Virus record (IMG/VR): IMGVR_UViG_3300021356_000797
Coordinates: 1-64,000 of that record
Direction: 5' to 3' (one strand)
DNA length: 64,000 bases
Origin: a virus
The notes under the pieces: model-generated
Seen by the model: the letters and a program-made list of their open reading frames with translations, nothing else
The model's database searches: none
What the model was told of the DNA's origin: nothing
Shown here: positions 14,001 to 41,036 of the stretch, piece by piece
Numbering within the stretch: the first letter of the stretch is position 1
Layout: each line of letters opens with the position of its first letter
Program-made: the position numbers and the translations under genes

Positions 14001-14012
14001 TTTGTATATTAT
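14001..14012 (+). promoter_or_regulatory. putative late promoter TTTGTATATTAT followed by hairpin GTGTAAGGCA-cgt-TGCTTTACAC
   Basis: Recurrent motif; hairpin at about 14014-14036. Confidence 0.65.
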
Positions 14013-19060: not shown

Positions 19061-19104
19061 TTAAAGGTTAATCCTTAAATTTACTACTATACAAATATCT
19101 TAAG

Positions 19105-22200: not shown

Positions 22201-22243
22201 CATAATGCTAACCATCTCTTTGGATAGGGAAAAAGAGTAAACA

Positions 22244-25200
22244 ATGGCAAACGAATTTAAAATTAAACATGGGTTTATTTCTACAGGCAGCGGTTCTGTA
22301 GAAGGAGAACTACGTATTACAGGAGCATCTTATGCAGATAATGGTAGTAGAATTGCTACTAGACCTTGGGTAACACAGTTTCTTTCTGATAATAGTTATG
22401 CAACAGCTGGTGACATTACTACTGCAATTAGCAATTTAGTTGATTCTGCTCCTGGTACATTAGATACTCTTAATGAGTTAGCAGCAGCAATAGGAGATGA
22501 TCCTAACTTTGCAACAAGTATTAGTACAAGTATAGCATCTAAACTTCCACTAGCTGGTGGAACAATGACGGGTAATATTACTTTTACTGATAACGCAGAA
22601 GGTATTGTATGGTCACGTAACACTGATGGAGCTTCTATTAAGTTCTATAACACAGCAGACGGTGACACAGATTCTAGATTAGAATTCCACACTAACGATA
22701 ATAACAATGAATACTTTAGATGGACTCACGGTCCTTCTGGAGGTGCTTTATATGAAGTAATGAAGCTTATGCCTACAGAGGCAGGAGGTTCAAGACTTAC
22801 AGTACAAGGAGAGGTTTTTGAAGGTTCTGAAAGAGTGGCTACACAGACTCATGTTTCTTCAAACTATCTAAGCAAGTTCCATGATATGACTATTACTCTT
22901 ACGGGTGATGCTAGTGGTACAGGTACCTTTAACAACATGGGTGATGTTAGTTTTGCCGTTACTGTTGCAAATGATTCACATACACATGACGGACGTTACT
23001 ACACTGAAACTGAAATAGATACTTTTTTAGGTGATAAAGCTGCAAAAGTACATACTCACGATGCTGCTGATATTGTAAGTGGAACATTCCCATCAGAAAG
23101 ACTTAGTGGTGTTTATACTATTGATGTAAGCGGTACATCTACATATGCTAATAATTTATATAGAGATGATAATAGAACTATAGCTCCAAGTGGAGACACT
23201 AATGGTACGCTAAGTTTTGGTTTTACATCATTCCAAAATGACAACTCAGCTCCTTGGGCAGACTACTTGCACTTAAGATCTTACACAGATTCTTCAGGCG
23301 GTAGAGATAACTTGCTTATGTTTAGTAAGTCTGATATGGAAATCAGACTATGGCAGCAAGACTTTAATAGTGCTGACAACTATGCAGACTTTAGAGACAT
23401 TGCATTTAAAGATGAGTTGCAAGTTCCTGCAATTAAGTCAAACGGGTCTACTCCTAGTTTAAATACGGGGATCACTGCTGGTGAGATTAGAACTCTTATT
23501 GGTGCAGGTACCTCTAGTTTTGATGGAGCTTATTCATCACTTAGCGGTCTTCCTACTTTAGGTACAGCTGCCGCATCTGCAGCTACAGATTTTGTAGCAG
23601 TATCGGGTGATACAATGACAGGCACACTTACAGCAAGCGGGGGTATTAATGGTTTGACTCTTGCTAATGGTATTAGCGGTACAAACTTTAATATTACAGG
23701 TGTTAACCAATTAGAAATTGCAGACCCTGGAGAAGGTATTGTATTTAAGTCAGGGTCTAGTGGTGATATGACACTTGCTATTGTAGATGATACTAGTGAT
23801 AATATTTTGAGATTTTCTGGTACAGGTGCTACACTACAAGTAGGTACTAATACTGTTTACCACACAGGTAACTTAAATATTGGAACACTTGATGGTTATA
23901 CTCAAGGAGAAGTAGATAACCTTGTTGATGCAAAAGCTGATTTATCACATACTCATACATTTGCTTCATTAACATCTAAGCCAGATTTTATAAACAACAG
24001 TTTACTTAGCAGTAGAGCAACTGGAACTCCAGATACTGTTGGGGATTCATATGGTGTGAGCGTAAACTATATGCAAGATGGAGCTACAAATTCTCCTTCT
24101 GGTGTTGACCACGCATTGCTTACAATGTCTTACAGTAATCTTTGGCAAACTCAACTTGCTCAAGACTGGAGAGAAAATGGTAGAATTTATATTCGTGGTC
24201 AAGAAAATGGTACTTGGTCTGGATGGGGACAAGTTTGGTCAAGTCATGATTTTACTTCAACTAGCATTTCTAATTGGAATACAGCATATGGTTGGGGTAA
24301 TCACGCAAGTGCTGGATACCTAACCTCACTACCTAACCATAATCACGACACATTATATGATGCTATTGGATCTGCTGATGCAGTAGGTCAACAAATTAAT
24401 GAGCGCATTGACACAGAAGTGTTTGATGCTATCACTTCGGCTCAAGACACAGCTGATGCTGCACTACCTAAAAGCGGTGGTACTTTATATAAACAAACAA
24501 ATACATCTGGTACAAGCGGTACAACTTTCTTAACAGTACACAATAATGTAGGTGGTGATATTAGTCAGCAGCAGTCTTTTGTAGACTTTATGTTTACGGA
24601 TACCAATGCTAACTTTACTCCACAAGTAAGAATAGGAGCGCAAGTAGGTAGAAACGCTGATGCTAATGCAATCTCTAAAGAAGGAGCAGGAGCATTTGTG
24701 GTTTATACAGGAGATGGTACTGATGAAAGCGGTGGTGGTGCTTTGAGTGAGGCAATGAGAATTGGCTTTGATAATAAGTTATATGTTCAAGGTGAAATTC
24801 AAGCAAGTGGTTATAATAAAACAAATTGGGATACTGCCTATGGTTGGGGTAACCACGCTTCAGCAGGATATTTAACAACGCTACCATCTCATAATCATGA
24901 TACATTATACGATTCATTAGGATCAGCAGATGCAGTTGCTACTGCTTTAAATGAGCGTATTGATACTGAGGTATTTGATGCTATTACAACTGTAAATGGT
25001 AACATTCCAACCAACAATAACCAACTTACAAACGGTGCAGGTTATATAACATCATTTGACATAACAACACAAACGGATGGTAAATATTTACGTAGCAATG
25101 CTGATGATTCATTTAGTGGAAATTTAACGTCTGCTCAAAGTAAATGGATTAAGTTCTATCATCCTACTCAAACAGATTCAAATGATGGTAAAATTGGTGC

Positions 25201-28078: not shown

Positions 28079-28081
28079 GTC

Positions 28082-29122
28082 ATGGCGTTTCGTATTAATA
28101 GAGGTATATTTCAATTTAAAGACGGTACAAAATTTATCAACAAATTTAAAATTGATGTTGATGGTCAATTAAAAGAAGTTGATGCTAATGGAGATCCTGT
28201 AGCTGATTATCTTAAAACAGGAGATAAAGCATCTGATGCGAATACTCTTGACGGTATTGATAGTACTGGATTTGTAAAAACAACTTATAACTCTGCTTTA
28301 AATAGTGATAGCAGAAACTCTAGAGGGGTTACTAGACTATACAGACGAGATGGTGATAGTAATTATTCTTTACAACACTATTGGACTGGTAGTTATTGGT
28401 ACTTAAAAGGATATAGCGGTGACACATATCATGCTGGAGTTCAAGTGGCATATGCAGATTATGCACAAACCGCAAATTTGCTTGACGGTATTGATAGCGG
28501 TTCTTTTTTAAGATCTGATGCAAATGATTCTTTTAGTGGTAATTTAACTGCAACTGCCAATGACTGGTACATATATGGTTTAGGTTCTAGAGGAGCTTCT
28601 TCAGGTGCTTATGGTATTGGAAACGGTGACAATGATGCTAAAAGACAGTTGACATTTCACGTTCCTAACCAAGCTGCATATTCTAGTTCAGGTACTGTTC
28701 CTTCTTTTGGTTTTTATTCCAATGGTTCTCGTGAATTAATGAAGCTAAATTCAGAGTCTGGTAATTTATGGGTTAGAGGTACAATAGAAGCAGATAATCG
28801 TATATATGCTGACAATGGTGTACATATACGTGGTGACTGGTTAAGAGTAAATGGTAATAAGGGTTTATATTTTGAATCTCACGGTGGTGGATGGTACATG
28901 AGTGATTCTTCTTGGGTACGTGTTCATAATAATAAAAACATTTACACTGCTGGTAACATTGAAGTAGGTGGTACATCTAGAGCTGATAACGGCTTTAAAG
29001 TTGGTGGAGATACTGTAATTGATTCTAGTAGAAATGTTACAGCTAATACATCTGTTCAAATTGGAGCATATGTAATTAGACACGATGCAGCTACTAACAG
29101 ATTAGAATTTGTATTAGCATGA
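28082..29122 (+). CDS. tail fibre / receptor-binding protein
   Basis: LDGIDS..F repeats; DWLRVNGNKGLYFESHGGGWYMSDSSWVR module also known from PilV-type adhesins and phage fibres. Confidence 0.7.
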   Translation: MAFRINRGIFQFKDGTKFINKFKIDVDGQLKEVDANGDPVADYLKTGDKASDANTLDGIDSTGFVKTTYNSALNSDSRNSRGVTRLYRRDGDSNYSLQHYWTGSYWYLKGYSGDTYHAGVQVAYADYAQTANLLDGIDSGSFLRSDANDSFSGNLTATANDWYIYGLGSRGASSGAYGIGNGDNDAKRQLTFHVPNQAAYSSSGTVPSFGFYSNGSRELMKLNSESGNLWVRGTIEADNRIYADNGVHIRGDWLRVNGNKGLYFESHGGGWYMSDSSWVRVHNNKNIYTAGNIEVGGTSRADNGFKVGGDTVIDSSRNVTANTSVQIGAYVIRHDAATNRLEFVLA

Positions 29123-29289
29123 TAGAGATATTTGAAGATATTGCTAATAATATATTTACCGTATCTGGAATAGATGGGGTTATGTATGAGTTTGAATCAG
29201 ACATAGATGCAATAAACAAAGCACAAGAGCTTTGCAATTGTAATGATGAGTTTATTATAATGCCTTTATTTGACGATGCTGAACTTTGA
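29119..29289 (+). CDS. 56-aa acidic protein (MIEIFEDIANNIFTVSGIDG...), possible fibre chaperone, not in ORF track
   Basis: ATGA overlap with the upstream stop; translated by hand. Confidence 0.6.
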   Translation: MIEIFEDIANNIFTVSGIDGVMYEFESDIDAINKAQELCNCNDEFIIMPLFDDAEL

Positions 29290-30385
29290 TGAGACAGGTG
29301 TTTTAAGATCACCCAATATAAATGAGACATTACATTGGGATGCAAGTTTAGGTAGAACTAATTTGTATTCTAATGGTGATTTTGAATTAGGAACTACTCA
29401 AAATTTTTGGGGAGGTTTAACTATACATTCTGATGATCCTCAATCTGGAAAGTATTATGCCCAGCAAAATGTATATGCAGGTTGGCAGAGTAATGAGTTT
29501 GTACCTGTTGATACGGGTCAAGAGTATGAAATTTCTTTATGGGTAAAAACTTTTACAAGAGGTTCAGATGGTAATCTTTCCAGAGGTCATATGGGGTTTG
29601 CATGCTATGATAAAAATAAATCATTTATAGATTTAAGAAATTGCGGGGGTTTAGGTAACACTAGGTTAAGTAGAGAGCTTAGACCAGGTGATCAATATGC
29701 TTATTTTGAAAGTAATAGCGGATGGTATAGTGGAACTTTTGAAGAAGTATCTGCTAATAGAGCTTACTATAGATGGATTTTATTTTTCCCACCTGATCAT
29801 CCTGATTATAGTCAAGAATGGTTTTACACAAGAATAAATCCTGTAGCATATCAAGAAATGATTCAAATGCCTGAAGGTGATTGGAGAGTAACTTTATCTA
29901 GTTATAGAAGTAGCGGTACTTTAGTAGATGCTCCTACAACAATGCCGGATATAGGATACCCATTACCTGCTGGTACTCCAGTATCAAGAGGTGCTGCCGG
30001 AGGTAGTTATAATTATGCGCTAGGTACAGGACCCTATCCTGAAGAATGGACTCAATTTAAAACAACAATACCAGCTAATACAGAAGTCAGAAATTCAGAC
30101 AGAAGGTTTAGACCAGGTACAAAATATATAAGATTTTTAATTTTAGGTAATTACTATGCTCGTTCTAGTAGTATTACAACTAAACCTGTTTTTGGATTAG
30201 ATAATATTGCTTTAACTTGTGTTTCTACAAATCAAGCAAACACTTTTAGTAGTTTTATAGAATTAGAAGATCAGGTTACACATGTTCAAGACATTGTAGA
30301 ATTAGGAGAAGCTCCAGTAAATAATGTATTGGGTTACATTGATGATGCAACTCTATATATTGCAAACGAAATAATAGAAGAATAA
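29276..30385 (+). CDS. carbohydrate-binding-module-like receptor-binding protein
   Basis: NLYSNGDFELG...VPVDTGQEYEISLWVK...FRPGTKYIR..LDNI CBM4/9-like jelly roll; ATG at 29276. Confidence 0.6.
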   Translation: MLNFDETGVLRSPNINETLHWDASLGRTNLYSNGDFELGTTQNFWGGLTIHSDDPQSGKYYAQQNVYAGWQSNEFVPVDTGQEYEISLWVKTFTRGSDGNLSRGHMGFACYDKNKSFIDLRNCGGLGNTRLSRELRPGDQYAYFESNSGWYSGTFEEVSANRAYYRWILFFPPDHPDYSQEWFYTRINPVAYQEMIQMPEGDWRVTLSSYRSSGTLVDAPTTMPDIGYPLPAGTPVSRGAAGGSYNYALGTGPYPEEWTQFKTTIPANTEVRNSDRRFRPGTKYIRFLILGNYYARSSSITTKPVFGLDNIALTCVSTNQANTFSSFIELEDQVTHVQDIVELGEAPVNNVLGYIDDATLYIANEIIEE

Positions 30386-30386
30386 A

Positions 30387-32672
30387 ATGGCACAGCTTAA
30401 AGCAGGAAGTACAGCAGGAGGTCAGGTAATAGCAACTCAAGATTGGGTTACGTCTACTATTGTAGATGGCGCTCCTTCAGCTCTTAACACATTGAATGAA
30501 TTAGCAGCAGCTATAAATGATAACTCTAGTTATGCAGCAAGTATCACTACTGCATTGGGTGGTAAATTATCTACTACAGGTAAAGCAGCTGACTCAGATA
30601 AATTAGATGGTTATCATGCATCTAGTTTTTGGAGAAATGGTGTAAATAACACTTGGACTCCTTCAACAAATATATTACTACCACAGTCAGCTAATTCACA
30701 AGAGTGGTCTTTTGATATTACACGTAATGGTTATACTGGAGGTTATTGGCAAGTATGGGATAGTGCTAATACTACTATGCTTAAGGTTGATGCTGTATCT
30801 GGTAAGGTATCTGCTCCTTATGGATTTGTAGGAAACATACAAGGTAACGTAACCGGTAACGTAACTGGTAATGTTACAGGTAGTGCAGGTACAGCAGGTA
30901 GTGCCACAACTGCAACTACAGCAACCAATTTAGGTGCTTATTATACAGCTGACGATTGGTTTAGAGCTACGGGTGATAATAACACGGTTAGGTTCTACGG
31001 TAACAGCAGAATGATGGTGTTCCGTACAGATGGTGAAGGTGGTGATGAAGGTCACACTGGTTACGCATTTAAGTGGACATACGGAGGTAATGGCACCGGA
31101 AACACGTTAATGCTTCTTGACAATAATGGAAACGTATGGACAAAGAGTTACGGATGGTTGCACAGTAGGTTTGAAACATCTGGTGCAGCAGCAGCTGTTG
31201 AAGAAAATCTAACACCTCAAATAGCAACAGCACAGACTACCGCTGATAACGCAGCAACCGCAGCAGCAAATGCACAGTCTACTGCTGATACAGCACTTGC
31301 AAGAGCAAATGGAGCAAGAGAGGACACTGTTGCCATTGGTGAAGCAGCAGTAGAAGCGCAAGCAGCGGCAGATGCAGCACAGGCTACAGCAGACAGTAAA
31401 TTAGGGGCTACAGCAAAGGCTGCGGATTCTAATCTTTTGGATGGCATTAATAGTACATCATTCTTACGTAGTGATCAGAACGATACTATGTCTGGCACAC
31501 TCACCATTACAGGAAGTAACGGTGTAAGTAGACTAAGAATAGAAGGTACTACTCCAACTATTGACCTTGATGATGCTGATGGAGATAGTTTCTACATCCA
31601 TGTAAACGCTAACAATTTCTATGTACTTAGCGATAGAAATGGAGGGGGTAACTACGGAGATTGGGAAAGTCCACATCCATTCTATCTTGAGGCTGATACA
31701 AACAGTACATACTTATGGGGCAACAAAGTAGGTACTGCTGCATATGCTAATACAGGTGCATTTGACGCAGCAGGAACAGCTGATGCTGTTAATACACGTA
31801 TAGATGAGGAGATATTACCTGCTATTGACTCTAAACAAAATGCTGGGTCTTACCTAACAACATCTGGTAAAGCTGCTGACGCAAACAAACTTGATGGTTA
31901 CGACTGGATGCAGAGTGGTAAGAATATTCGTGCAAATGATTTCTATGCAGATAATTGGTTCAGAAACTACAACTCTGGAGAGGGTATATACAATCAAGCA
32001 ACAACTCAGCACTTTTATTCTGATCATGATGATTATTGGAATGTGGCAGGTGGTTCAGGAGCAAATGGTATCCGTTTCCGTGATGAGCACGCAGGAACTA
32101 TTAGAGGATATGTTTACGCTACAAGCAGCAATGAAGTAGGTTTCTTGGATAGTGACGGTAGCTGGGCAGTAAGAGTTGTAAGAGATTCTCACGTTGAATT
32201 TAGAGACAACAATGAAGTAACATTTACTGCAGGTCAAGGGGGTCACTCCTCTAACTACGGTACAGTTTGTACTCACGGTGGTGGACGTGGTGGTTGGGAA
32301 GGATATTCTATCAACGGATGGTGGGTATGGATGTCTTCTGACGGCTCAAATTCTGGTATCTATAATGACTTAGACAATGAGTGGATGACCCGCTGGCATC
32401 GTAATGGAGGTACAGAGTTAATGCACAATGGTTCTACTAAGTTAAGTACAACAGGTAGTGGTGTAACTGTAACAGGTACTGTAACTGCAACATCTTTTAG
32501 CGGTGACGGGTCTGGATTGACTGGTGTTCCAGTAGCAGACCAAAGAACTCCTGCAACTGTAAATGGAGAACCAGCAGGTAGAGTTGTATCCATTAACTTT
32601 AACATAGACAGAGGTCTTATAGAGTTTAACCTTGATAACGGTCAAACATTTAATGGCGCATTAGCAAGATAA
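30387..32672 (+). CDS. tail fibre protein
   Basis: MAQLKAGSTAGG N-terminus, GAPSALNTLNELAAA, GNVT repeats, Ala-rich coiled coil, ADNWFRN module. Confidence 0.78.
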   Translation: MAQLKAGSTAGGQVIATQDWVTSTIVDGAPSALNTLNELAAAINDNSSYAASITTALGGKLSTTGKAADSDKLDGYHASSFWRNGVNNTWTPSTNILLPQSANSQEWSFDITRNGYTGGYWQVWDSANTTMLKVDAVSGKVSAPYGFVGNIQGNVTGNVTGNVTGSAGTAGSATTATTATNLGAYYTADDWFRATGDNNTVRFYGNSRMMVFRTDGEGGDEGHTGYAFKWTYGGNGTGNTLMLLDNNGNVWTKSYGWLHSRFETSGAAAAVEENLTPQIATAQTTADNAATAAANAQSTADTALARANGAREDTVAIGEAAVEAQAAADAAQATADSKLGATAKAADSNLLDGINSTSFLRSDQNDTMSGTLTITGSNGVSRLRIEGTTPTIDLDDADGDSFYIHVNANNFYVLSDRNGGGNYGDWESPHPFYLEADTNSTYLWGNKVGTAAYANTGAFDAAGTADAVNTRIDEEILPAIDSKQNAGSYLTTSGKAADANKLDGYDWMQSGKNIRANDFYADNWFRNYNSGEGIYNQATTQHFYSDHDDYWNVAGGSGANGIRFRDEHAGTIRGYVYATSSNEVGFLDSDGSWAVRVVRDSHVEFRDNNEVTFTAGQGGHSSNYGTVCTHGGGRGGWEGYSINGWWVWMSSDGSNSGIYNDLDNEWMTRWHRNGGTELMHNGSTKLSTTGSGVTVTGTVTATSFSGDGSGLTGVPVADQRTPATVNGEPAGRVVSINFNIDRGLIEFNLDNGQTFNGALAR

Positions 32673-32880: not shown

Positions 32881-33207
32881 ATGCTAAAGAGATTTTGGAA
32901 CTGGTTAGTTGGAAAATGGAACTGGTTACTTGGACAAACTACCATTGATGACAAGATCATTGATGCGGCAGAAGATGTACAAGATAAAGTAGAAGATACT
33001 GTAGAGGATATCAAAGAGGTTGTAGTTGAAGCTAAGAGACGCGCTAAGCGTGTTAAAGAAGAAGCTGCTGATGTAGTAGCTGCAGTAAAAGAAGTAGGTA
33101 AGCAAGCTAAGGATGTAGCTAATGCTGCTAAGGGTACTAAACGTAAGGGACGTAAACCAGCAGCTAAGAAAAAACCTGCTACTAAGAAAACTACTCCTAA
33201 GAAATAA
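32881..33207 (+). CDS. small protein with Trp-rich amphipathic N-terminus and histone-H1-like basic tail
   Basis: RFWNWLVGKWNWLLG ... KKPATKKTTPKK. Confidence 0.7.
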   Translation: MLKRFWNWLVGKWNWLLGQTTIDDKIIDAAEDVQDKVEDTVEDIKEVVVEAKRRAKRVKEEAADVVAAVKEVGKQAKDVANAAKGTKRKGRKPAAKKKPATKKTTPKK

Positions 33208-33219
33208 TTTGTATATTAG
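33208..33219 (+). promoter_or_regulatory. putative late promoter TTTGTATATTAG
   Basis: Recurrent motif. Confidence 0.62.
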
Positions 33220-33250
33220 TACTGTTATATAACTTTTAAAACTAACTATT

Positions 33251-33541
33251 ATGGCTAAGGCTAAAAAAATTAAAGCTGAAGAGCTAGAGTCTGTACAGGC
33301 TTTGGTAACTGCTTCACGTCAAGCAGAGTCAGATTTCTTTAGAGCTTCTACAGAAGCAGAGCGCATTGCAGCATTACGTACAGCTGCTTTTGAAAATATG
33401 GGATCTACCCAAGAAGCTTTGCAAGCTGAGATGAATAAGCTTAAAGAAGTATATGGTGACATCGTAGTTAACTTGGAAACAGGTGAGTACGAAGATGCAC
33501 CAGCACAAGAAGAAGCTCCAGCATTGGAAGTAGTTGAGTAA
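33251..33541 (+). CDS. small coiled-coil protein (possible fibre assembly chaperone)
   Basis: KIKAEELE...LKEVYGDIVVNLETGEY pattern. Confidence 0.7.
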   Translation: MAKAKKIKAEELESVQALVTASRQAESDFFRASTEAERIAALRTAAFENMGSTQEALQAEMNKLKEVYGDIVVNLETGEYEDAPAQEEAPALEVVE

Positions 33542-33563
33542 GCTTACACTCAAACAAAATCTG

Positions 33564-33594
33564 AAGCCATCCTTTGATTAGGGTGGCTTTTTTT
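33564..33594 (+). terminator. intrinsic terminator whose T-tract runs into the next promoter motif (33592-33603)
   Basis: AAGCCATCCT-ttgatt-AGGGTGGCTT TTTTT GTATATTAT. Confidence 0.8.
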
Positions 33595-33638
33595 GTATAT
33601 TATAATATAAAGAGTTTTTAAATATAACTAGATAAATT

Positions 33639-34223
33639 ATGGCAACTTCAACAACTACCACCAGTATTGTTCTTAACTGGACTCCTGCAGGTGGCTCTAA
33701 TTCAACAGGCCAAGAGGTGCAAAGAAGTCCTGCAGGTGCAGGTACATATACTACACTTGCTACTTTAGGTCCAACAATTAATACATATACAGATACTACA
33801 GCGGTAGTAGATACCGTATATGACTATCAAATTGTAAACATTTGTGCAGTAGGTGGTCCTACTAGTAGTGGTACAAGTGATATTGTAGATATTAGTTGTG
33901 TTTCTTTAACAGCAAATGTACAAGGTCTTATTGTAGATGGTGAATACGGTGAATTATTTAACGATACTAGCTGGCTATCATTTGATATTTTGGATGAGAC
34001 TGGTGCTTCTGTTATTCAAGCATTAACTGTTCCTACTGGTCAAGGTGCTGGTCTTTACACTAGTACTGATGCTGGTATGAGTTATGATACTAATTATATC
34101 TTAAGAGCTACTCTTACTGCTCCTAATGGTACTATTGAAAAATGTGATGTCCCATTCTCTACCGGTGCTCAACCAGATTGTGAGGCTCCAACTAACTTAA
34201 CAGTTTCTGTAGTACAAGCTTAG
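33639..34223 (+). CDS. FN3-domain structural protein; candidate major subunit of a donor-strand fibre
   Basis: LNWTPAGG...YTD...YDYQIVNIC; C-terminal CEAPTNLTVS; flanked by own promoter and hairpin. Confidence 0.75.
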   Translation: MATSTTTTSIVLNWTPAGGSNSTGQEVQRSPAGAGTYTTLATLGPTINTYTDTTAVVDTVYDYQIVNICAVGGPTSSGTSDIVDISCVSLTANVQGLIVDGEYGELFNDTSWLSFDILDETGASVIQALTVPTGQGAGLYTSTDAGMSYDTNYILRATLTAPNGTIEKCDVPFSTGAQPDCEAPTNLTVSVVQA

Positions 34224-34230
34224 TTTTAAA

Positions 34231-34277
34231 ATAGTAATTTAGATAGGGTGGATAATTTTCACCCTATCTAATACTAT
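34231..34277 (+). terminator. long inverted repeat (terminator/attenuator or mRNA-stabilising stem)
   Basis: ATAGTA..TTAGATAGGGTG-gataatttt-CACCCTATCTAA-TACTAT. Confidence 0.75.
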
Positions 34278-34308
34278 TAGAGGAGTGTAGTATTAATATT
34301 ATTTAGAT

Positions 34309-34860
34309 ATGGCTTTAAAACTTACTTGGATCCCTGCAGGTGGGCAAAACAGTACCGGTCAAGAAATATATAGATCTGGAGATTACGTTGATTCAGTAGG
34401 TCCTACTGAGAGTACGTATCTTGATAATCCACCTATTCCAAATACTACATATGAATACACAATAGTAAATCTTTGTAGTAGTGGAGGACCTACTTCTTCA
34501 GACCCTGTAGTAGGTGTTAATTGGGAGTGTCCTTCAATTACCGTTACAGAAGTAAGCGGTGACTTGCGAGTGAATGTAGGAGAAATCCAATCTGGTTATA
34601 TAATTTCTGTAGATCTTTATAATAGTGATGGTACTACACTTATACAGTCAGGAGATTCTTTTCAACCAACAAGAAATAGTGTTATTTCTTTATTTACAAA
34701 TTTAACTGCTGGTAATACATATACTGTTGTAGTTTCCGTAGCAGCTCAAGGTTTAGATGAAAGTCCAGACCTTAACTATATTAATGACTGTACAGAGCAA
34801 GCCACTTTAAGTGCTTCATGTACTCAAGCAACTAATGTATCAGCAAACCCACAATACTAA
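34309..34860 (+). CDS. FN3-domain protein, paralog 2
   Basis: LTWIPAGGQNSTGQE...YEYTIVNLC; C-terminal CTQATNVSA. Confidence 0.75.
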   Translation: MALKLTWIPAGGQNSTGQEIYRSGDYVDSVGPTESTYLDNPPIPNTTYEYTIVNLCSSGGPTSSDPVVGVNWECPSITVTEVSGDLRVNVGEIQSGYIISVDLYNSDGTTLIQSGDSFQPTRNSVISLFTNLTAGNTYTVVVSVAAQGLDESPDLNYINDCTEQATLSASCTQATNVSANPQY

Positions 34861-35552
34861 TGGCAACAATCGTAGTTACATGGACACCTGGTGGAGGACC
34901 TACAGCAGTTAGTCAAAAAGTGAAAAGGTCTGTTAGTGGAGCTAATAACTTTATTGAGCTTGTTGAAATAACTGATCCTACTGTTTCTACTTATACAGAT
35001 ACTCAGGCTGATGATAATACATTGTATGATTATCAGGTTGTAACTGTTTGTAGTGTTGGTCCGGACACAATTAATAGCGGAGGATTTCCTCCAACCATTT
35101 ATATTGATTGTGGTACAGCAACTTTAAATTCATATTCAGCTTCAGGTGGTGGAAACACGTTTCCTGAAATTTCTTTTACTATTCCAAGTAGAACGGGTAC
35201 AGACGTAAAAATTCAGTCTTATCAGTGGAAAGATGCTTCAGGCACTGCTATAGATTATCAATATACTGTTAATACTCAAAATGCTGTTACAGGAACAATT
35301 AGTAGTGATTCAAATGGTAATTTATTATCTTGGAGTACTCAGTATACATTGCACGTAACATTTAAGTCTACAGATGACGCTTTTACTAGAGAGTGTACAT
35401 TTGACATAACTACGGCGGCACAACCGGCTAGTTGTACAGCGGCAACAAACTTTACTGTAACAAATGAATATAGAACCGACTTTAACTATCCTGTAGATTC
35501 ATCTTCATCAGATCCTAGTGAAGGTTCAGGTGAAGGAAGTTTACCAGCTTAA
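34860..35552 (+). CDS. FN3-domain protein, paralog 3
   Basis: VTWTPGGG...YDYQVVTVC; CTAATNFTVT followed by a Ser-rich tail. Confidence 0.75.
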   Translation: MATIVVTWTPGGGPTAVSQKVKRSVSGANNFIELVEITDPTVSTYTDTQADDNTLYDYQVVTVCSVGPDTINSGGFPPTIYIDCGTATLNSYSASGGGNTFPEISFTIPSRTGTDVKIQSYQWKDASGTAIDYQYTVNTQNAVTGTISSDSNGNLLSWSTQYTLHVTFKSTDDAFTRECTFDITTAAQPASCTAATNFTVTNEYRTDFNYPVDSSSSDPSEGSGEGSLPA

Positions 35553-35564
35553 AAGTAAAAAAGA

Positions 35565-36740
35565 ATGTCAGAAAATTCTAGATTTAAAATAACTTGGACA
35601 CCCAGTTCTGCAGCTGTTTCTCAAAAGCTTTATAGATCTTTGAGTAATACGGGTCCTTGGACTTTAATAGCAACCTTAGGGCCTACTGTAGATAGTTATA
35701 CAGATAGTTCTGTAGATCCTACACCTGCGGATGTTTACTATTATAAGCTTGATACTATTTGTTCTAATGGTAATTCAGAAACTGCTGTAGTATTTGATAC
35801 AGCTATTAATTGTGATTCTAATGGTAAAACTAGATTATTTGGTTTGGTTAATAATGCTACAGAAACAAATAATATTTTAGATTTTACTTATTATGATACT
35901 GCAAATTTATTTGCAAATACTTATTATTCTGCAAGTACTTCCTATCCTAAAACTATTACAGTAGATAAAACAGACCCTATTGTAGTAGTTTGTCAAAAAT
36001 GTGGACAAGATGTAACTTATTCTTTAAATGCTACTTCTGCTAGTTTTGGAGCTACTCAAACTTTAGGTGATTATAGCTATTTAAGTACGCAGGGGCATAT
36101 TATAAAATATTTACCAACTTCTCCAACTGGTTTAGGTGGAAGTAGTAATAATAATGCAGGGACCGTTCGTCAAAAACTTTACGAGGGTACTTTAGCTCCT
36201 GTGGGTGGTAGATTCCAATTAGGAGTAGGTAATACTGGTTCTAATACCTGGGTTGGTTGGGGATTTGGTTATGTGTCGGCAAATGCTAATACAAGTGTAG
36301 CCACAACTAATTTGACTTGGAATTATGGTGAAATGCCTTCTTCTACAAGTACTGCTAATGGTGGTTTTACTGGAATTAGAATTAGCAAAGCTGACTGGGA
36401 TGGTAATTCTCCAGGAACTGAAGATTTTTCGTCAGCTTTAGCACAACTGACTGGATCTAACTGGTATGTGAGTATTTTAGATTCTTCTAATCTTGTTTAT
36501 GTTGATAACACTGCTTATGGAGGATTAAGCTGTGAACATCATATATACAAACTTACAAGAAAATCAGCTTGGGATTATGTTGTAAATGGTGTAATAACTC
36601 ATTATGGATTTATTATGCAAAGGTATAGCTATGTAGATTATAATGGTTATAGAATTTATAGTAGTCCTATTAGACAGCATTATTTTCCTTATACTGCAGG
36701 TCAACAGCCTGATGCATATTTAAAAATATTTAGTCTTTAA
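35565..36740 (+). CDS. FN3-domain protein with large aromatic-rich C-terminal domain; candidate tip adhesin
   Basis: ITWTPS...YTD...YYYKLDTIC; no terminal CxxPTN strand. Confidence 0.7.
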   Translation: MSENSRFKITWTPSSAAVSQKLYRSLSNTGPWTLIATLGPTVDSYTDSSVDPTPADVYYYKLDTICSNGNSETAVVFDTAINCDSNGKTRLFGLVNNATETNNILDFTYYDTANLFANTYYSASTSYPKTITVDKTDPIVVVCQKCGQDVTYSLNATSASFGATQTLGDYSYLSTQGHIIKYLPTSPTGLGGSSNNNAGTVRQKLYEGTLAPVGGRFQLGVGNTGSNTWVGWGFGYVSANANTSVATTNLTWNYGEMPSSTSTANGGFTGIRISKADWDGNSPGTEDFSSALAQLTGSNWYVSILDSSNLVYVDNTAYGGLSCEHHIYKLTRKSAWDYVVNGVITHYGFIMQRYSYVDYNGYRIYSSPIRQHYFPYTAGQQPDAYLKIFSL

Positions 36741-36768
36741 CATTAAGGCTTTTAATTAAGGGTGAAAT

Positions 36769-36780
36769 TTTGTATATTAT
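36769..36780 (+). promoter_or_regulatory. putative late promoter TTTGTATATTAT
   Basis: Recurrent motif. Confidence 0.62.
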
Positions 36781-36830
36781 AATGTAGGGTGCAAACCCAA
36801 CTTGGCTAAGTATTTACAAAATTTTAGTAT

Positions 36831-38051
36831 ATGATTCCTATATCATCAAGCAACTATCAACAAGGTTGTGACCCTATATCATCTAATTGTGTAATTTGGC
36901 AAGGACCAGATCTACCAATTATTGGTCTTTGTAAGGGAGACAGTATTAGTGATGTAATTAAAAAACTTGCAGACTCCTTAGTAGAAATTAGTGATTCAGT
37001 TTCTACTGCAGGTGTAGACTTGAGTTGTTTACAACTATCAAATCCACCTGAAACAACTGCTGATCTTTTTCAAATAATTGTAGATGAACTTTGTAGCCTA
37101 GATAGTAGATGTGATAATTTAGAAAGTGGAGGCGGTTCTACAGGAACTGCAGAAATTACAGCTACTTTACCTTTATGTCTACAATATACTAATGCTCAAA
37201 ATGATTTAGTTACCCAACTTCCTATTGATGAGTATGCTGAGCTTGTTGCAGCAAAGGTGTGTGATATTATTGCAGACATTACAATAATTAATACTCAGAT
37301 TTCAGATCATGAGACTCGCATTACTAACCTGGAAAATAATACAGGAAGTGGTGACTATACAACTCCTCAAATTACTCCCAACTGTGTTCTTCCTTCAGTA
37401 CCTACAGATATTGATGTAGTTCTAGATGAATTAGAAGATCAGTTTTGTACACTTGATACTGTACTAGGAGGTTCAACATCTTTGCTAGCTTCTACTAGTT
37501 ATCAGTGTGATTTGTTGTCTACTGATAACCAATTAGGTGGTAGCGGTACAATGAGTTCATTAGAAGGTTGGGTTACCCCAGTTAGTAGTGTAGCAGATTC
37601 ATTAACTAATATGTGGTTGACTATCTGTGATATGCGTGCAGCTATTAAAGATATTCAGACTAACTGTTGTACAGGAGCTACATGTAATGATGTAATTTTT
37701 AGTGCATTTGGTTCATACGCAAATGATACTATCACACTAAACTTTGGAGGATCAGTTATTCCTGCAGGATTTAGTGAATGTAATCCTGCAGGCAATAGCG
37801 TTACTATTACAGATGCTGCATCTAATACTTATAGCACTACTGTATCAGTAAGTGGCGCACTTGTTGGTGATGGTACAGAAACTATTGATATATCTGGATC
37901 ACAATTAAGTGACATTTCTAATTATTTTGTTACAATTACACTTTGTGTTACAGATGGTGATATTACTTGTGAAAAATTACTTTCATTTGAAGTTGTAAAT
38001 GACGCATCTTCTTGTGGAGTTCCAACAGGTATTTCAGTAACATTATCATAA
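36831..38051 (+). CDS. Cys-rich acidic structural protein with coiled coil and Ig-like domain; candidate fibre base
   Basis: PISSNCVIWQGPDL, ISDHETRITNLE coiled coil, C-terminal CGVPTGISVTLS. Confidence 0.7.
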   Translation: MIPISSSNYQQGCDPISSNCVIWQGPDLPIIGLCKGDSISDVIKKLADSLVEISDSVSTAGVDLSCLQLSNPPETTADLFQIIVDELCSLDSRCDNLESGGGSTGTAEITATLPLCLQYTNAQNDLVTQLPIDEYAELVAAKVCDIIADITIINTQISDHETRITNLENNTGSGDYTTPQITPNCVLPSVPTDIDVVLDELEDQFCTLDTVLGGSTSLLASTSYQCDLLSTDNQLGGSGTMSSLEGWVTPVSSVADSLTNMWLTICDMRAAIKDIQTNCCTGATCNDVIFSAFGSYANDTITLNFGGSVIPAGFSECNPAGNSVTITDAASNTYSTTVSVSGALVGDGTETIDISGSQLSDISNYFVTITLCVTDGDITCEKLLSFEVVNDASSCGVPTGISVTLS

Positions 38052-38054
38052 AAC

Positions 38055-39191
38055 ATGGCAACATTAACAATTAATTTTAATACTACAGCCAATGCTGTTA
38101 AGTACAGGATTAAAGTAAGACAATCTGGTACCAGCACTTATGCAATCCATGAGGTTACTAGTAGTCCACTAGTTTTAGATAATATTCCTTGTGGTATTGC
38201 TTATGAGGGTACTGTTCAGGCAATTTGCTCTGAAGGTATTCCGTGTGATAGATATAACGTCTTTACTCATGGTCCAGCAGATGGTGATGTGTATTATGAT
38301 AATTGTGCTACTGGAGAGTCTGAATCTCAGGCTCTTACGGGTTGGGATAATTTTCATGTTTGTAGTAGAACAACGCCTGTTGTACAAGGGTCTTCTGGAA
38401 CTACAGTAACTAAAGTATCTCAAGGAGAATGTACCTCTCCTTCACCAGAAGAAATTAGTGGACCAGTTTACTGGTCAGCTACAGCAGCTACTTGTCCTGC
38501 TGACTCTTATGTATTTACAAACTGTGCTGATGGTACAACTGAGAAGTATATAAGTAAAGTTATTTGGACTAGTAGCAACGTTTATGGCTCAGCTCCTGCA
38601 AGCAATTTAGTATATGAAATTGATTTTGATGGTAATGGCTATAGCTGTTGGACATATAGTCGTGAAGACGATAGTACACAACATCCTTCAGGAAATACTA
38701 TTCCTTTAGATGTAAATCAATCTGTCTTTAATGATTGTCAACAGTGTGCTGGCATTTATGCTCACAAGTTTGAAAATTGTAGTAGCGGAGTTATTACTTG
38801 GATTTTACCTAGTGCTTGGAGTACAGTTTCAGGTGGTACAGCTCCTGTATTAAATACTGTATATAGAGGAAGGTTTAATCAGATAGTAGGTTGTTATAAA
38901 TATTTAGGATCTGAAAATACTAACTCAGCTGTTGGTACAGTGTCTTCTAACTTTACTTTACAGACTTATTCTAATTGTCAGACTTGTCCAGATACCTTCT
39001 ATTCTCTAAGATCTTGTGATGGTACTACAACTCAAACTGGATTTTACTATGGTGTACAGTTAAGCCCAGGGCAATCAGTAAGATTGCTAGGTCTTCCTAC
39101 ACAATGCTGGGAAGTTATGGGAACTTCTACTTCTAACAGTGGATTAGAAATTACTCAAGTGTTTAATGATTGTGATTCTTGTGCAGTTTAA
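38055..39191 (+). CDS. FN3-like N-terminus plus tandem Cys-rich repeats
   Basis: TLTINF...YRIKVR...YEGTVQAIC, then repeats YxxxxC...C[WY]...[FY]xxCxxC. Confidence 0.72.
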   Translation: MATLTINFNTTANAVKYRIKVRQSGTSTYAIHEVTSSPLVLDNIPCGIAYEGTVQAICSEGIPCDRYNVFTHGPADGDVYYDNCATGESESQALTGWDNFHVCSRTTPVVQGSSGTTVTKVSQGECTSPSPEEISGPVYWSATAATCPADSYVFTNCADGTTEKYISKVIWTSSNVYGSAPASNLVYEIDFDGNGYSCWTYSREDDSTQHPSGNTIPLDVNQSVFNDCQQCAGIYAHKFENCSSGVITWILPSAWSTVSGGTAPVLNTVYRGRFNQIVGCYKYLGSENTNSAVGTVSSNFTLQTYSNCQTCPDTFYSLRSCDGTTTQTGFYYGVQLSPGQSVRLLGLPTQCWEVMGTSTSNSGLEITQVFNDCDSCAV

Positions 39192-39206
39192 AAAAAATAA
39201 ATAATT

Positions 39207-39725
39207 ATGGCTTGTAATACGTGTGGGGGAAATGGTTGTACATGTGGTCCAGTTAGGATTAACCCCGTATATCCAGAATGCCCAGGTGGAGAACCATGTG
39301 ATTCAACAATGGACTTTGCCTGTGTAAGATATAGAGGAGATGATCTAGCAGACTTTCCTTTAGCAAATGGTGATAGACTATCTAGATTTATGCAGATGCT
39401 AGTTCTTAGAGAACTAGATCCTACTGCATTTGCAGGTGTAGATTTTATTCGTGCACCTTACTGGATTGAGTCTATTGCTAAAACAGATACTACTATTGAT
39501 ATTGAGTGGGATGATACTCCTACTACTTTTGATTGGATTATTTCTTATTCTCTTGATAACAGTACTTGGACTGATATTACTGGTGTAGCAAACACTAAAA
39601 ATTCTTATCAGTTAATAAACCTAGCACCTGCTACCAAGTACTATATTAAAGTTGCTGCAGTAGGTAATGGCGGGGCTCCTGGTCCTTTCTACTCTCTTAC
39701 TATTGAGGTAACTACTAACGCATAA
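39207..39725 (+). CDS. Cys-rich N-terminus plus complete FN3 domain
   Basis: CVRYRGDDL paralogous to 36831; IDIEW...LAPATKYYIKVAAV. Confidence 0.75.
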   Translation: MACNTCGGNGCTCGPVRINPVYPECPGGEPCDSTMDFACVRYRGDDLADFPLANGDRLSRFMQMLVLRELDPTAFAGVDFIRAPYWIESIAKTDTTIDIEWDDTPTTFDWIISYSLDNSTWTDITGVANTKNSYQLINLAPATKYYIKVAAVGNGGAPGPFYSLTIEVTTNA

Positions 39726-39793
39726 AGTCACGGTTTTGTTGGTTTTGCGTGACTGACAGGGGAACCCTTCCATTTTGGAGGGGTTTCTTTTTT
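39726..39793 (+). terminator. tandem hairpins ending in an intrinsic terminator
   Basis: AGTCACG-loop-CGTGACT, then GGGAACCCTTCCA-ttt-TGGAGGGGTTTCT TTTTT. Confidence 0.75.
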
Positions 39794-39836
39794 GACAAAA
39801 ATTATATATATTTAACAAACTCTAAATCAATTAACT

Positions 39837-41036
39837 ATGAGTTCATTACTGGACCGTGTAAGACAATCCCTCAAATGGAAAAAAACAGCTCAGCTTTGTG
39901 CTGACAGAATTGGCATTAGTGTAGAAGACTATCTTGCCTTGAAATCCATAGTATCAGATGATGCTATCACTGACACAGGTGTACGCACTGGTGTTATGTC
40001 TGAGAATGTAAATCTTGAAGAAGGTTCTTCTAAGATTGAAGCTATTTCAAGTACAGAACCTAAGACTCCCGAAGATATTATTGAGATCCTAGGAATTGAT
40101 ACTAATGAATGGAAACTATCACAGTATTGGAATAAACAAAAGTCTGATCACTGGGTAGTATCTGCACTAGTTACAAAGCTGAAGCCTACAGAAGTAGATA
40201 ACTTAGCTGAAGCGGTGAAGAACTATAGACCTACAAGCTATTCAGTAGTACATTGTCCCCGTATAGATATTAATAAAAATGATAGCTACTGCGGGGTTTT
40301 TAGTGTTCAAGATGTACACTTTGGTAAGGAGAATAACAATGACGTCATAGATAGATTTAGAGAAGCTATTACAGAAGTTGCATACAAGGCTTCTAAGGCT
40401 TACAATATGGACAAGCTATACTATGTGGTAGGTGGTGATTTGTTAAACGCTGATACATTCTCTAAGACTACTACTAAGGGTACTCCCGTAGAGAATGATA
40501 AGGATCCTATTCAAGCTTATATTGAAGCCTTTGATGCAGTAGTATGGTCTATTCATCAGCTTAAAGAAGTATGTACAGAACTAGTTGTTGTATATATTCC
40601 AGGTAACCATGATAGATTATCTTCTTGGCATCTGGCTCATGCACTAGAAAAGTCTGTTACTATTGAAGGTGTAACCTTTGATACAGAATACTCAGAGCGT
40701 AAGGTGCATTTATTTGGAGATAACTTTTTAGCATTTGAACATGGTGATGTTAATACTTCTAACTCTGACAGAGTATATGCTGCAGAGTTCTCAGAAGAGT
40801 GGGGAGCTACTACTTATAGAACCTTATACACTGGTCACTATCATCAGAAGAAGACTAGTGTATTTATTACTGAAAATGAAATCAATGGTTTCTCTGTAAA
40901 GATTATGCCTAGTCTTTCTAACTCAGACTATTGGCATTATCACAACAAATTTGTAGGTAGTAAGAAGGCTGCAGTACTAGAAGTACATGAGCATATTAAT
41001 GGGAAGGTTGCTGAGTTTTGTCATATAGCACGATAA
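39837..41036 (+). CDS. calcineurin-like metallophosphoesterase with N-terminal HTH
   Basis: QDVHFG, GGDLLN, PGNHD, EHGD, TGHYH motifs. Confidence 0.88.
   Translation: MSSLLDRVRQSLKWKKTAQLCADRIGISVEDYLALKSIVSDDAITDTGVRTGVMSENVNLEEGSSKIEAISSTEPKTPEDIIEILGIDTNEWKLSQYWNKQKSDHWVVSALVTKLKPTEVDNLAEAVKNYRPTSYSVVHCPRIDINKNDSYCGVFSVQDVHFGKENNNDVIDRFREAITEVAYKASKAYNMDKLYYVVGGDLLNADTFSKTTTKGTPVENDKDPIQAYIEAFDAVVWSIHQLKEVCTELVVVYIPGNHDRLSSWHLAHALEKSVTIEGVTFDTEYSERKVHLFGDNFLAFEHGDVNTSNSDRVYAAEFSEEWGATTYRTLYTGHYHQKKTSVFITENEINGFSVKIMPSLSNSDYWHYHNKFVGSKKAAVLEVHEHINGKVAEFCHIAR

What the first reader, a model, noticed from the sequence alone, without database searches (positions are those of the whole stretch)
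33639..39725. Pilus-like phage fibre: split FN3 subunits set up for donor-strand complementation with inter-subunit disulfides
Seen: four paralogs (33639, 34309, 34860, 35565) and 38055 begin almost immediately at FN3 strand B (IVLNWTP, LKLTWIP, IVVTWTP, FKITWTP, TLTINF), with no strand A. Each carries a Cys at the end of strand F (VNIC, VNLC, VTVC, DTIC, QAIC). Four proteins end with an orphan Cys-led strand: CEAPTNLTVS (34179), CTQATNVSA (34819), CTAATNFTVT (35433) and CGVPTGISVT (38013). Known: Bacteroidota-type FN3 domains often start CxxPTNLxV and have a second Cys after strand F, and chaperone-usher and type V pili polymerise by donating one strand to an incomplete neighbour. Inference: each tail completes the next subunit's head domain and is locked by a disulfide. 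The parts list fits a pilus: 36831 is donor only with a coiled coil (base); 33639, 34309 and 34860 are acceptor plus donor (shaft); 35565 and 38055 are acceptor only with a large distal domain (two alternative tips). None has a signal peptide, so this would be a virion appendage. I know of no description of such a fibre in phages.
Basis: partly seen in the sequence, partly recalled or inferred. Interest (0 to 1): 0.93.

Follow-up and report, generated by a model that had tools for sequence, protein, structure and literature searches.

The report
Split FN3 joints linking phage fibre proteins
In this uncultured marine crAss-like phage, neighbouring fibre genes are cut between the first and second strands of a fibronectin-type domain, so the short tail of one protein most likely plugs into the head of another and links separate proteins into a bead-chain fibre; binding has not been measured.

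Summary
Five proteins (33639, 34309, 34860, 35565, 38055) start at FN3 strand B. Four (33639, 34309, 34860, 36831) end in a Cys-led orphan strand A. Each tail plus the next gene's head adds up to one whole FN3.

- **Conservation:** the cut is kept in about 30 related viral contigs. All 33 distinct N-terminal FN3s lack strand A. Junctions use all three frames with TAA stops, so they are separate proteins.
- **Fused forms:** some homologues of the base continue through the same strand into a complete FN3.
- **Models:** a monomer model of 33639 is an extended two-FN3 rod with a free tail. A two-chain model puts that tail antiparallel to strand B of 34309 (ipSAE 0.77, best control 0.00). This pass may come from memory of the FN3 fold.

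I read this as donor-strand complementation joining base, shaft and tip proteins. The chains are probably short and follow gene order, not a long homopolymeric pilus; that point stays open.

The inter-subunit disulfide is plausible but untested. Where the fibre sits on the virion is unknown.

This scan has already reported the same split-FN3 connector in at least 19 other genomes. Solved precedents exist: the Tuc2009 BppU-BppA composite domain and type V pili.

The parts
33563..33606 (+). Terminator-like hairpin (33563-33590) followed by a promoter-like 15-mer (33592-33606). It heads the transcription unit 33639-36740.
   Evidence: The exact 15-mer recurs at 36769, with one mismatch at 14001 and 52559. 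There are 6 matches at up to 2 mismatches against 0.94 expected.
33639..34223 (+). Shaft subunit 1 (194 aa). It has an N-terminal FN3 without strand A (aa 1-88), a second FN3-like domain (aa 89-174) and a C-terminal donor tail (aa 178-194, nt 34170-34220).
   Evidence: Pfam fn3 covers profile positions 9-73 of 84. There are 47 homologues of 135-197 aa, 46 of them 177-197 aa. The AF2 model has pLDDT 89.6 with a free tail. Foldseek's best matches are tandem FN3 pairs. In the complex model the interface on this chain is residues 149 and 178-192.
34231..34277 (+). Long hairpin between shaft genes 1 and 2, with no clear U-tract. It is a possible attenuator or RNA-stability element.
   Evidence: minimum free energy -27.9 kcal/mol, z-score -5.1 against shuffles.
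34309..34860 (+). Shaft subunit 2 (183 aa), with acceptor FN3, second domain and donor tail (from Cys171, nt 34819-34857). Its stop overlaps the next ATG (TAATG).
   Evidence: In the complex model its residues 1-11, 13-15, 18, 38, 48, 50-54 and 56-72 receive the 33639 tail.
34860..35552 (+). Shaft subunit 3 (230 aa), with acceptor FN3, second domain and a donor strand at nt 35433-35462. A 29-residue Ser/acid-rich tail follows the donor strand.
35565..36740 (+). Tip 1 (391 aa), acceptor only. A type-1 FN3 without strand A is followed by a distal region of about 300 aa with no recognised family.
   Evidence: The Atlas search was uninformative.
36769..36783 (+). Second exact copy of the promoter-like 15-mer. 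It heads the unit 36831-39725.
36831..38051 (+). Base (406 aa), donor only. It has a conserved Cys-rich N-terminal domain (aa 1-60), a helical region, a beta-sandwich (aa 285-390) and a donor tail (aa 393-406, nt 38007-38048).
   Evidence: Alignment A3. The AF2 model shows the sandwich at pLDDT 83-90 and a free tail at pLDDT 30-39. Twenty related loci were found. The best BFVD hit is a 1189-aa protein of Virus NIOZ-UU157.
38055..39191 (+). Tip 2 (378 aa), acceptor only. A type-2 FN3 without strand A is followed by a Cys-rich distal region. It starts 3 nt after the base's stop.
   Evidence: The Atlas search was uninformative.
39207..39725 (+). Accessory protein (172 aa). It has an N-terminal domain related to that of the base, plus a complete FN3 with its own strand A and without the Cys pair.
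   Evidence: Pfam fn3 scores 29.4 bits at aa 83-157, profile positions 2-74. The N-terminal domains are 38% identical over 45 aa, E 8e-6.
39765..39782 (+). Terminator-like hairpin that closes the module.

Best explanation
The cluster encodes parts of a virion fibre joined by a split FN3 domain.

**The parts.** Each acceptor protein starts with FN3 strands B to G. Each donor protein ends, after its last domain, with a Cys followed by strand A and then 2-5 more residues; only 34860 carries a longer tail after the strand.

**The joint.** The donor strand of one chain lies antiparallel to strand B of another chain and rebuilds one whole FN3. The two chain ends meet in the A-B loop. The result is a continuous rod of FN3 beads with a nick in every second bead.

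**The disulfide.** The Cys before strand A and the Cys ending strand F probably form a disulfide across the nick once the particle meets oxidising sea water.

**The chain.** The base (36831) probably docks on the virion through its conserved N-terminal domain and offers donor strands. Shaft proteins (33639, 34309, 34860) both accept and donate. Tips (35565, 38055) only accept and carry the distal, presumably binding, domains.

**Order and length.** I think the chain order follows gene order, helped by close or overlapping genes, and that length is set by the number of shaft genes.

**Shown by sequence and models:** the cut, its conservation, the collinearity with whole FN3 arrays, and the predicted trans insertion.

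**Inferred:** actual binding, the disulfide, the order and stoichiometry, the position on the virion and the ligand.
For: 1. **Gene boundaries fall in the A-B loop at four junctions.** About 8 residues run from Met to the strand-B aromatic, and 12-14 residues run from the donor Cys to the stop at three of the four junctions (34860's donor tail is much longer). Together these add up to the usual FN3 spacing.
2. **The cut is conserved at 27-65% identity.** It is seen in 32 related IMG/VR loci. All 33 distinct acceptors are N-terminal. 23 of 30 donor-type C-termini sit directly before an acceptor gene, and 4 more are separated from it by one gene.
3. **Donor-only and acceptor-only proteins exist.** One relative has a 94-aa protein that is just a docking domain, a proline linker and the donor strand. 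These cannot self-complement.
4. **Natural fused forms exist.** In base homologues of L002, L003, L004 and L028 the chain runs on from the aligned strand. In L028 it runs into a domain that Pfam calls a complete fn3 (30.7 bits, profile positions 2-75).
5. **The unit lines up with continuous FN3 arrays.** The shaft profile matches giant tandem FN3 arrays over positions 2-187, in the shifted register (B-G)(A-G)(A).
6. **Monomer models leave the tails free.** In 33639 (pLDDT 89.6) residues 175-194 are not a strand. Foldseek's best matches are extended tandem FN3 pairs (TM 0.62-0.66 over 176-184 columns), so the tail exits about two domains away from its own head. The base tail is also free.
7. 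**The two-chain model of 33639 + 34309 passes its controls.**
   - ipSAE was 0.77, 0.77 and 0.76 in three runs; the best of 3 controls was 0.00.
   - The runs agree in at least 96% of contacts, and the partner pLDDT is at least 91.
   - That mark was reached by 58 of 80 solved complexes and 2 of 110 mismatched pairs. These counts hold only roughly, because my own alignments were used.
   - The contacts 185:8, 187:6 and 189:4 put the tail antiparallel to strand B.
   - Both Cys lie in the interface.
8. **The Cys are invariant.** This holds for both Cys in all acceptors and donors surveyed. Inter-protein disulfides stabilise crAss001 tail parts (PMC10172136).
Against: - There is no experimental evidence of binding, of a disulfide or of presence in the virion.
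- The complex pass may be memory of the FN3 fold, because this is in effect a split domain. Close paralogs would probably pass too, so it says nothing about partner specificity.
- The window has five acceptors but only four donors, so a strict 1:1 chain in gene order leaves 33639 without a donor.
- Donor tails before type-1 and type-2 acceptors show no obvious discriminating pattern.
- The docking role of the base's N-terminal domain rests on analogy only, and that part of the model has low confidence.
Confidence: 0.7

Rival explanations
1. Pilus-like homopolymer. 33639 is a major subunit that polymerises head to tail through its own tail and head. It is primed by the base and capped by 34309, 34860 and 35565, with 38055 as an alternative cap.
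For: - 33639 has its own promoter-like motif and is followed by a strong hairpin, so it may be made in excess.
- It has many conserved homologues, whereas 34309 has one.
- The window has one more acceptor than donor, which a self-polymerising subunit would resolve.
- Donor tails look generic.
Against: - In 11 related loci donors equal acceptors, with 0 or 1 shaft gene. Three diverged shaft paralogs would be unnecessary if one could polymerise.
- The hairpin lacks a U-tract.
Confidence: 0.18
2. Circular permutation in cis. Each shaft protein's own C-terminal strand folds back to complete its own N-terminal FN3, so no inter-protein link forms.
For: Shaft proteins carry both halves. C87 and C169 could tie the ends of domain 2 together.
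Against: - Donor-only and acceptor-only proteins cannot do this.
- The monomer model leaves the tail unstructured.
- The two domains superpose on extended tandem FN3 pairs, so the tail exits at the far end.
- The two-chain model inserts the tail in trans, not reciprocally.
Confidence: 0.04
3. One polyprotein. The genes are fused during expression by readthrough, frameshifting, an alternative code or an assembly error, so the FN3 domains are never really split.
For: Two junctions in the window are in frame (34860 to 35565, and 36831 to 38055, the latter with one TAA and one codon between them).
Against: - The 31 distinct junctions use all three frames, with gaps from -1 to 97 nt.
- Each downstream gene has its own ATG, and stops are almost always TAA.
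- One junction carries a hairpin and 85 nt of spacer.
- The same layout recurs in independent metagenomes.
- All but one of the 47 homologues of 33639 are 177-197 aa.
Confidence: 0.02
4. No functional link. The truncated FN3 is stable alone, and the C-terminal motif serves another purpose such as docking elsewhere or as a recombination scar.
For: Nothing has been measured. The FN3-like fold tolerates variation at its edge strands (own knowledge).
Against: - The tail is among the best conserved parts of the shaft family.
- The lengths of the two halves are complementary.
- Adjacency is strong.
- Fused homologues exist.
- The trans insertion is predicted with confidence.
Confidence: 0.06

Closest known systems
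Type V pili of Bacteroidota (FimA, Mfa1 to Mfa5)
   Same: - The acceptor lacks, or loses, its N-terminal strand, and the neighbour donates C-terminal strands.
- Anchor and stalk pilins carry donor strands, and tip pilins lack them. This is the same base / shaft / tip logic (PMC13655056).
- The host phylum is probably the same.
   Different: - Type V pilins are lipoproteins exported through Sec and Lol.
- They have transthyretin-like double sandwiches, start in a self-complemented form and need gingipain cleavage.
- Here there is no signal peptide and the fold is FN3.
- The strand is missing genetically, and assembly would be cytoplasmic on a virion.
Chaperone-usher pili (Fim, Pap): donor-strand complementation and exchange
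   Same: - An incomplete Ig-like fold is completed by a strand from the next subunit.
- Ordered tip fibrillae of several different subunits end in an adhesin (own knowledge).
   Different: - There the missing strand is the C-terminal G strand and the donor is an N-terminal extension.
- A periplasmic chaperone and an outer-membrane usher are required.
- No such genes or signal peptides were seen here.
Lactococcus phage Tuc2009 baseplate tripod (BppU and BppA)
   Same: This is a solved phage example. The C-terminal 25-residue hairpin of BppU completes a sheet of the BppA beta-sandwich, and the composite domain resembles a titin domain (PMC4742702).
   Different: - It is a single joint with a two-strand hairpin.
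- It is not a serial chain and not an FN3 cut in the A-B loop.
- No conserved Cys pair or repeated shaft subunits are involved.
Split nozzle of Pseudomonas podophage A1002
   Same: Domains of one tail protein that lack strands are completed by a second, separately encoded protein (PMC13730344).
   Different: It involves beta-propeller and platform domains of the nozzle, not a fibre, and it is not repeated serially.
Continuous poly-FN3 rods (giant tandem FN3 proteins, fibronectin, titin)
   Same: The shaft unit is collinear with two and a bit consecutive FN3 domains. The model superposes on fibronectin FN3 pairs.
   Different: Those are single polypeptides. Here the chain is nicked in every second domain and encoded by separate genes.
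crAss001 head and tail fibres
   Same: - This phage's major capsid protein is distantly crAss-like.
- crAss001 fibres dock through short N-terminal segments, and its tail parts are disulfide-stabilised (PMC10172136).
   Different: No sequence match to crAss001 fibre proteins was found. No split FN3 is described in that paper's text as searched.

Membership tests
Fibronectin type III domain (Pfam PF00041) | Sequence match above Pfam's gathering score | tested here: not met
   33639 scores 14.9 bits and 34309 scores 13.4 bits against a cutoff of 25. The match covers profile positions 9-73 only, because strand A is absent. The complete FN3 of 39207 passes at 29.4 bits.
Fibronectin type III domain (Pfam PF00041) | Seven-strand beta-sandwich fold, usually arranged in tandem | tested here: met
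   The AF2 model has pLDDT 89.6. Foldseek gives probability 1.00 to fibronectin FN3 pairs, with TM 0.62-0.66.
Donor-strand complementation fibres (mechanistic class) | A subunit with an incomplete Ig-like fold, and a partner that carries the missing strand as a terminal extension | tested here: met
   This holds for 33 of 33 acceptors, and donors sit at the C-terminus of neighbouring genes.
Donor-strand complementation fibres (mechanistic class) | The strand is inserted in trans into the neighbour's groove | tested here: inconclusive
   This is predicted only. ipSAE is 0.77 against a best control of 0.00, and the tail pairs antiparallel with strand B. The pass may reflect memory of the FN3 fold. 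There is no experiment.
Chaperone-usher pili | Sec signal peptides, a periplasmic chaperone and an usher; the missing strand is the C-terminal G strand | tested here: not met
   The N-termini are Met plus 2-8 residues and then strand B. The missing strand is A. No chaperone or usher family appears among the Pfam and PHROG hits of the module.
Type V pili | Lipoprotein precursor with a lipidated Cys, a protease-cleaved N-terminal anchor strand and a transthyretin-like double sandwich | tested here: not met
   There is no lipobox or signal peptide at the N-termini. The fold is tandem FN3.
Type V pili | C-terminal donor strands on anchor and stalk subunits, none on tips | tested here: met
   The base and shafts end in the donor strand, and tips 35565 and 38055 do not. 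The comparison is with PMC13655056.
Inter-subunit disulfide lock | The two Cys lie within bonding distance across the interface | not testable with these tools
   Both Cys are invariant and both are in the predicted interface. No coordinates or SG-SG distances are returned by the tools.

The most novel reading that the evidence does not exclude
A family of marine crAss-like phages builds virion fibres as gene-order-encoded hetero-chains.

- Separate proteins are joined only by rebuilding a nicked FN3 domain from two chains, then locked by a disulfide.
- No chaperone, usher or protease is involved.
- Fibre length and tip identity can change simply by gaining, losing or swapping whole genes at a standard joint.
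- This would be the first serial donor-strand-complemented fibre in a virus.
Probability: 0.5. Interest if true: 0.85.

Novelty: new variant of a known kind. Interest (0 to 1): 0.76.

Why it matters
- **A new way to build a virus fibre.** If the joint works as predicted, it is a plug-and-socket connector. It lets a phage build, lengthen and re-tip a fibre by shuffling whole genes, without re-evolving interfaces. That would explain the variable number of shaft genes and the alternative tips seen in relatives.
- **Wider reach for a known mechanism.** Donor-strand complementation is known from bacterial and archaeal surface filaments. Here it would work in virus particles assembled in the cytoplasm, without helper proteins.
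- **Better annotation.** A terminal Cys-led strand A and an N-terminal FN3 without strand A would become recognisable signs of physically linked fibre parts. This would help annotate host-range modules in uncultured marine and gut phages.
- **A possible tool.** The 12-14-residue tag and its roughly 80-residue receiver could serve as a small protein-ligation pair.

Tried and rejected
- **INPHARED phage records:** blastn of 33000-40000 and tblastn of 33639 and 36831 found no match.
- **IMG/VR scan with 33639 alone:** nothing was found. The alignment-based scan worked.
- **Word-based search for longer, fused forms of 33639:** it found only three generic FN3 proteins. The exhaustive profile search later showed collinearity with giant tandem FN3 arrays. 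These are generic FN3 relatives, not proven ancestors.
- **Homologues of 34309:** only one close homologue was found, so the partner alignment used paralogs.
- **Tip domains:** Atlas searches gave no usable lead, and Pfam and PHROGs gave nothing.
- **Base protein:** the AF2 model has low confidence outside its beta-sandwich. The BFVD search gave only one real relative.
- **Literature:** searches for donor-strand or strand-complementation fibres in phages found only sheath strand exchange in contractile systems and unrelated papers.
- **Tests not possible:** a homo-oligomer model of 33639 and a donor-by-acceptor matrix could not be run, because the cap is one complex job.
- **Readings rejected:** readthrough or recoding, and cis circular permutation (see the rival explanations).

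Full report
**What is in the sequence.** Between 33639 and 39725 seven + strand ORFs lie head to tail. Each has its own ATG and a TAA or TAG stop. A promoter-like 15-mer occurs exactly at 33592 and at 36769, and a terminator-like hairpin lies at 33563-33590. The cluster therefore looks like two units: 33639-34309-34860-35565 and 36831-38055-39207.

The surrounding genes are phage structural genes. They include large terminase, a major head protein, several tail-fibre-like proteins and 'virion structural proteins'. The record is a 103.8-kb virus genome. Its head protein is distantly related to those of crAss-like phages, Cellulophaga phages phi4:1 and phi17:2, and Azobacteroides phage ProJPt-Bp1.

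Pfam aligns residues 3-72 of 33639 to fn3 profile positions 9-73 of 84, so the domain starts after strand A. The five acceptors (33639, 34309, 34860, 35565, 38055) reach the strand-B aromatic residue 7-14 residues after Met. Each ends strand F with a Cys.

Four proteins (33639, 34309, 34860, 36831) end in a Cys followed by a strand-A-like motif. In three of them 2-5 more residues follow; 34860 has a longer tail.

The end of one gene plus the start of the next reads as one continuous FN3 A-B segment. The gene boundary lies in the A-B loop. At three of the four junctions the two partial lengths (about 13 plus about 8 residues) add up to the normal spacing.

**It is conserved, so it is not an accident of this genome.**
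- Homologues of the base 36831 and of the shaft family recovered 32 IMG/VR loci at 27-65% identity.
- HMMs built from the two acceptor types hit 33 distinct ORFs. Every hit starts at residue 1-12 of its ORF.
- The only internal FN3 hit is in the 39207-like protein, which has its own strand A.
- Of 321 distinct ORFs, 30 end in a donor-type motif. 23 of these lie directly before an acceptor gene (odds ratio 103, p 6e-22; inflated because the sequences are related). Four more are separated from their acceptor by one 39207-like gene.
- The 31 distinct junctions use all three frames, with gaps of -1 to 97 nt and almost always TAA. This excludes readthrough, frameshifting, recoding or assembly error as a general explanation.
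- 33639 has 47 homologues, and all but one are 177-197 aa. W14, C69, C87, C169 and C181 are invariant, and the tail is well conserved.

**The halves belong to one domain.** In alignment A3, base homologues from L002, L003, L004 and L028 do not stop where 36831 stops. They continue from the aligned strand into further strands. In L028, Pfam calls a complete fn3 there (30.7 bits, residues 400-478, profile positions 2-75).

A profile of the shaft family was searched against 1.84 billion representatives. It matches giant tandem FN3 proteins over profile positions 2-187. The unit is therefore collinear with continuous FN3 arrays in the shifted register (B-G)(A-G)(A).

**Cis or trans.**
- Donor-only proteins exist: 36831, and in a relative a 94-aa protein made of a docking domain, a proline linker and the donor strand.
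- Acceptor-only proteins also exist: 35565, 38055 and many relatives. Neither kind can complete itself.
- The AF2 monomer of 33639 (pLDDT 89.6) has two beta-sandwiches and leaves residues 175-194 without strand structure.
- Foldseek superposes that model on extended fibronectin FN3 pairs (TM 0.62-0.66 over 176-184 columns). The tail therefore leaves the far end of the rod, where the next FN3 of a tandem array would begin.
- The tail of the base is likewise free (pLDDT 30-39) next to a confident sandwich.

**The two-chain prediction.** The model of 33639 with 34309 gave ipSAE 0.77, 0.77 and 0.76 in three runs. The best of three controls was 0.00. The runs agree in at least 96% of contacts, and the partner pLDDT is at least 91.

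That mark was reached by 58 of 80 solved complexes and 2 of 110 mismatched pairs. These counts hold only roughly, because my own alignments were used.

The interface is residues 149 and 178-192 of 33639 against residues 1-11, 13-15, 18, 38, 48, 50-54 and 56-72 of 34309. The contacts 185:8, 187:6 and 189:4 show antiparallel pairing with strand B, which is the canonical strand A position. The arrangement is open head-to-tail and not reciprocal.

Because this is in effect a split FN3, the pass may come from the model's memory of the fold. It shows likeness, not binding, and it cannot speak to partner specificity.

**The disulfide.** C87 and C169 probably clasp the linker to the last strand of domain 2. 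This is my inference from the model's secondary structure. By the same logic C181 of the donor and the strand-F Cys of the acceptor would clasp the rebuilt domain.

Both Cys are invariant and both are in the predicted interface. No coordinates are returned, so the distance is unknown. Disulfides between virion proteins are documented for crAss001 tail parts (PMC10172136).

**Polymer or ordered chain.** In L002, L003, L006, L007, L009, L012, L013, L016, L018, L028 and L029 the number of donors equals the number of acceptors. The number of shaft genes is 0 or 1 there, against 3 here. Genes are closely spaced or overlapping. This fits short chains whose order follows gene order and whose length is set by gene number.

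The window, L001, L026 and L032 have one extra acceptor, so two tips may compete for one donor. This fits if the base is oligomeric, as its long helices suggest at low confidence.

33639 has its own promoter-like motif, a strong downstream hairpin (-27.9 kcal/mol, z -5.1) and many more homologues than 34309. I could not model homo-oligomers.

**Where and what for.** The base and 39207 share an N-terminal Cys-rich domain (38% identity over 45 aa, E 8e-6). This domain is also present in the base-like proteins of relatives.

In crAss001, head fibres and tail fibres dock through their first 26-58 residues. By analogy this domain is the likely virion anchor, but whether on head or tail is unknown. 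The distal domains of both tips have no recognisable relatives. A binding role is inferred from position only.

**Comparison with what is known.**
- **Type V pili** are the closest in logic. The missing strand is N-terminal and the donor is C-terminal. Anchor and stalk subunits have donors and tips have none (PMC13655056). Membership fails, though: here there is no lipoprotein signal, no protease step and a different fold.
- **Chaperone-usher pili** share the principle with the opposite polarity, and they need helpers that are absent here.
- **Tuc2009** provides a solved single joint within phages. The BppU hairpin completes the BppA sandwich into a titin-like composite domain (PMC4742702).
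- **Phage A1002** has a nozzle split between two proteins (PMC13730344).
- **Contractile sheaths** exchange strands between subunits.

A serial fibre made of nicked FN3 domains with a conserved Cys pair was not found in the literature I could search.

This scan itself has already reported the same split-FN3 connector in at least 19 other genomes. This window is therefore a further, rich example, with three shaft paralogs and two tips, and not a first sighting.

**Verdict.**
Trans strand complementation is the best reading (0.7). The disulfide is plausible. A long pilus-like polymer is less likely than short ordered chains.
- Novelty: a new variant of a known kind.
- Interest: 0.76.

Noticed in passing
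window 14001, 33592, 36769, 52559: A 15-mer (TTTGTATATTATAAT, exact or with one mismatch) lies just upstream of four structural genes or operons. There are 6 matches at up to 2 mismatches against 0.94 expected. It is a candidate late promoter of this phage.
   Followed up: partly
window 33251-33541: The 96-aa helical protein just upstream of 33639 ends in a strand-A-like stretch (A-P-x-L-x-V-V) without a Cys. It is a speculative donor for the otherwise unpaired head of 33639.
   Followed up: no
window 36831-37010 and 39207-39450; L006-L012 at about 9590: Two families of Cys-rich N-terminal domains head the base-type proteins. Those of 36831 and 39207 are homologous (38% identity over 45 aa). 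They are a candidate virion-docking module.
   Followed up: partly
BFVD entry A0A7S9SUN3 (Virus NIOZ-UU157): A 1189-aa protein is 31% identical to the 406-aa base (E 2e-23). It is probably a long fused form in an abundant marine uncultured virus. Its sequence was not retrievable here.
   Followed up: partly
window 39837-41036 and all related loci: A metallophosphatase-like 'DNA repair exonuclease' gene (phrog_704, E 1e-41) always follows the fibre module, inside the structural block. Its role there is unexplained.
   Followed up: no
L010 9596-11356: In this relative the base-type protein (586 aa) has neither a donor tail nor a following acceptor gene. The whole joint can therefore be absent.
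   Followed up: partly
window 17156-32672: A run of six large tail-fibre-like genes precedes the split-FN3 module. In the relatives that show capsid-module genes upstream (for example L003-L020), it is not found between those genes and the module. This phage therefore carries at least two fibre systems.
   Followed up: no
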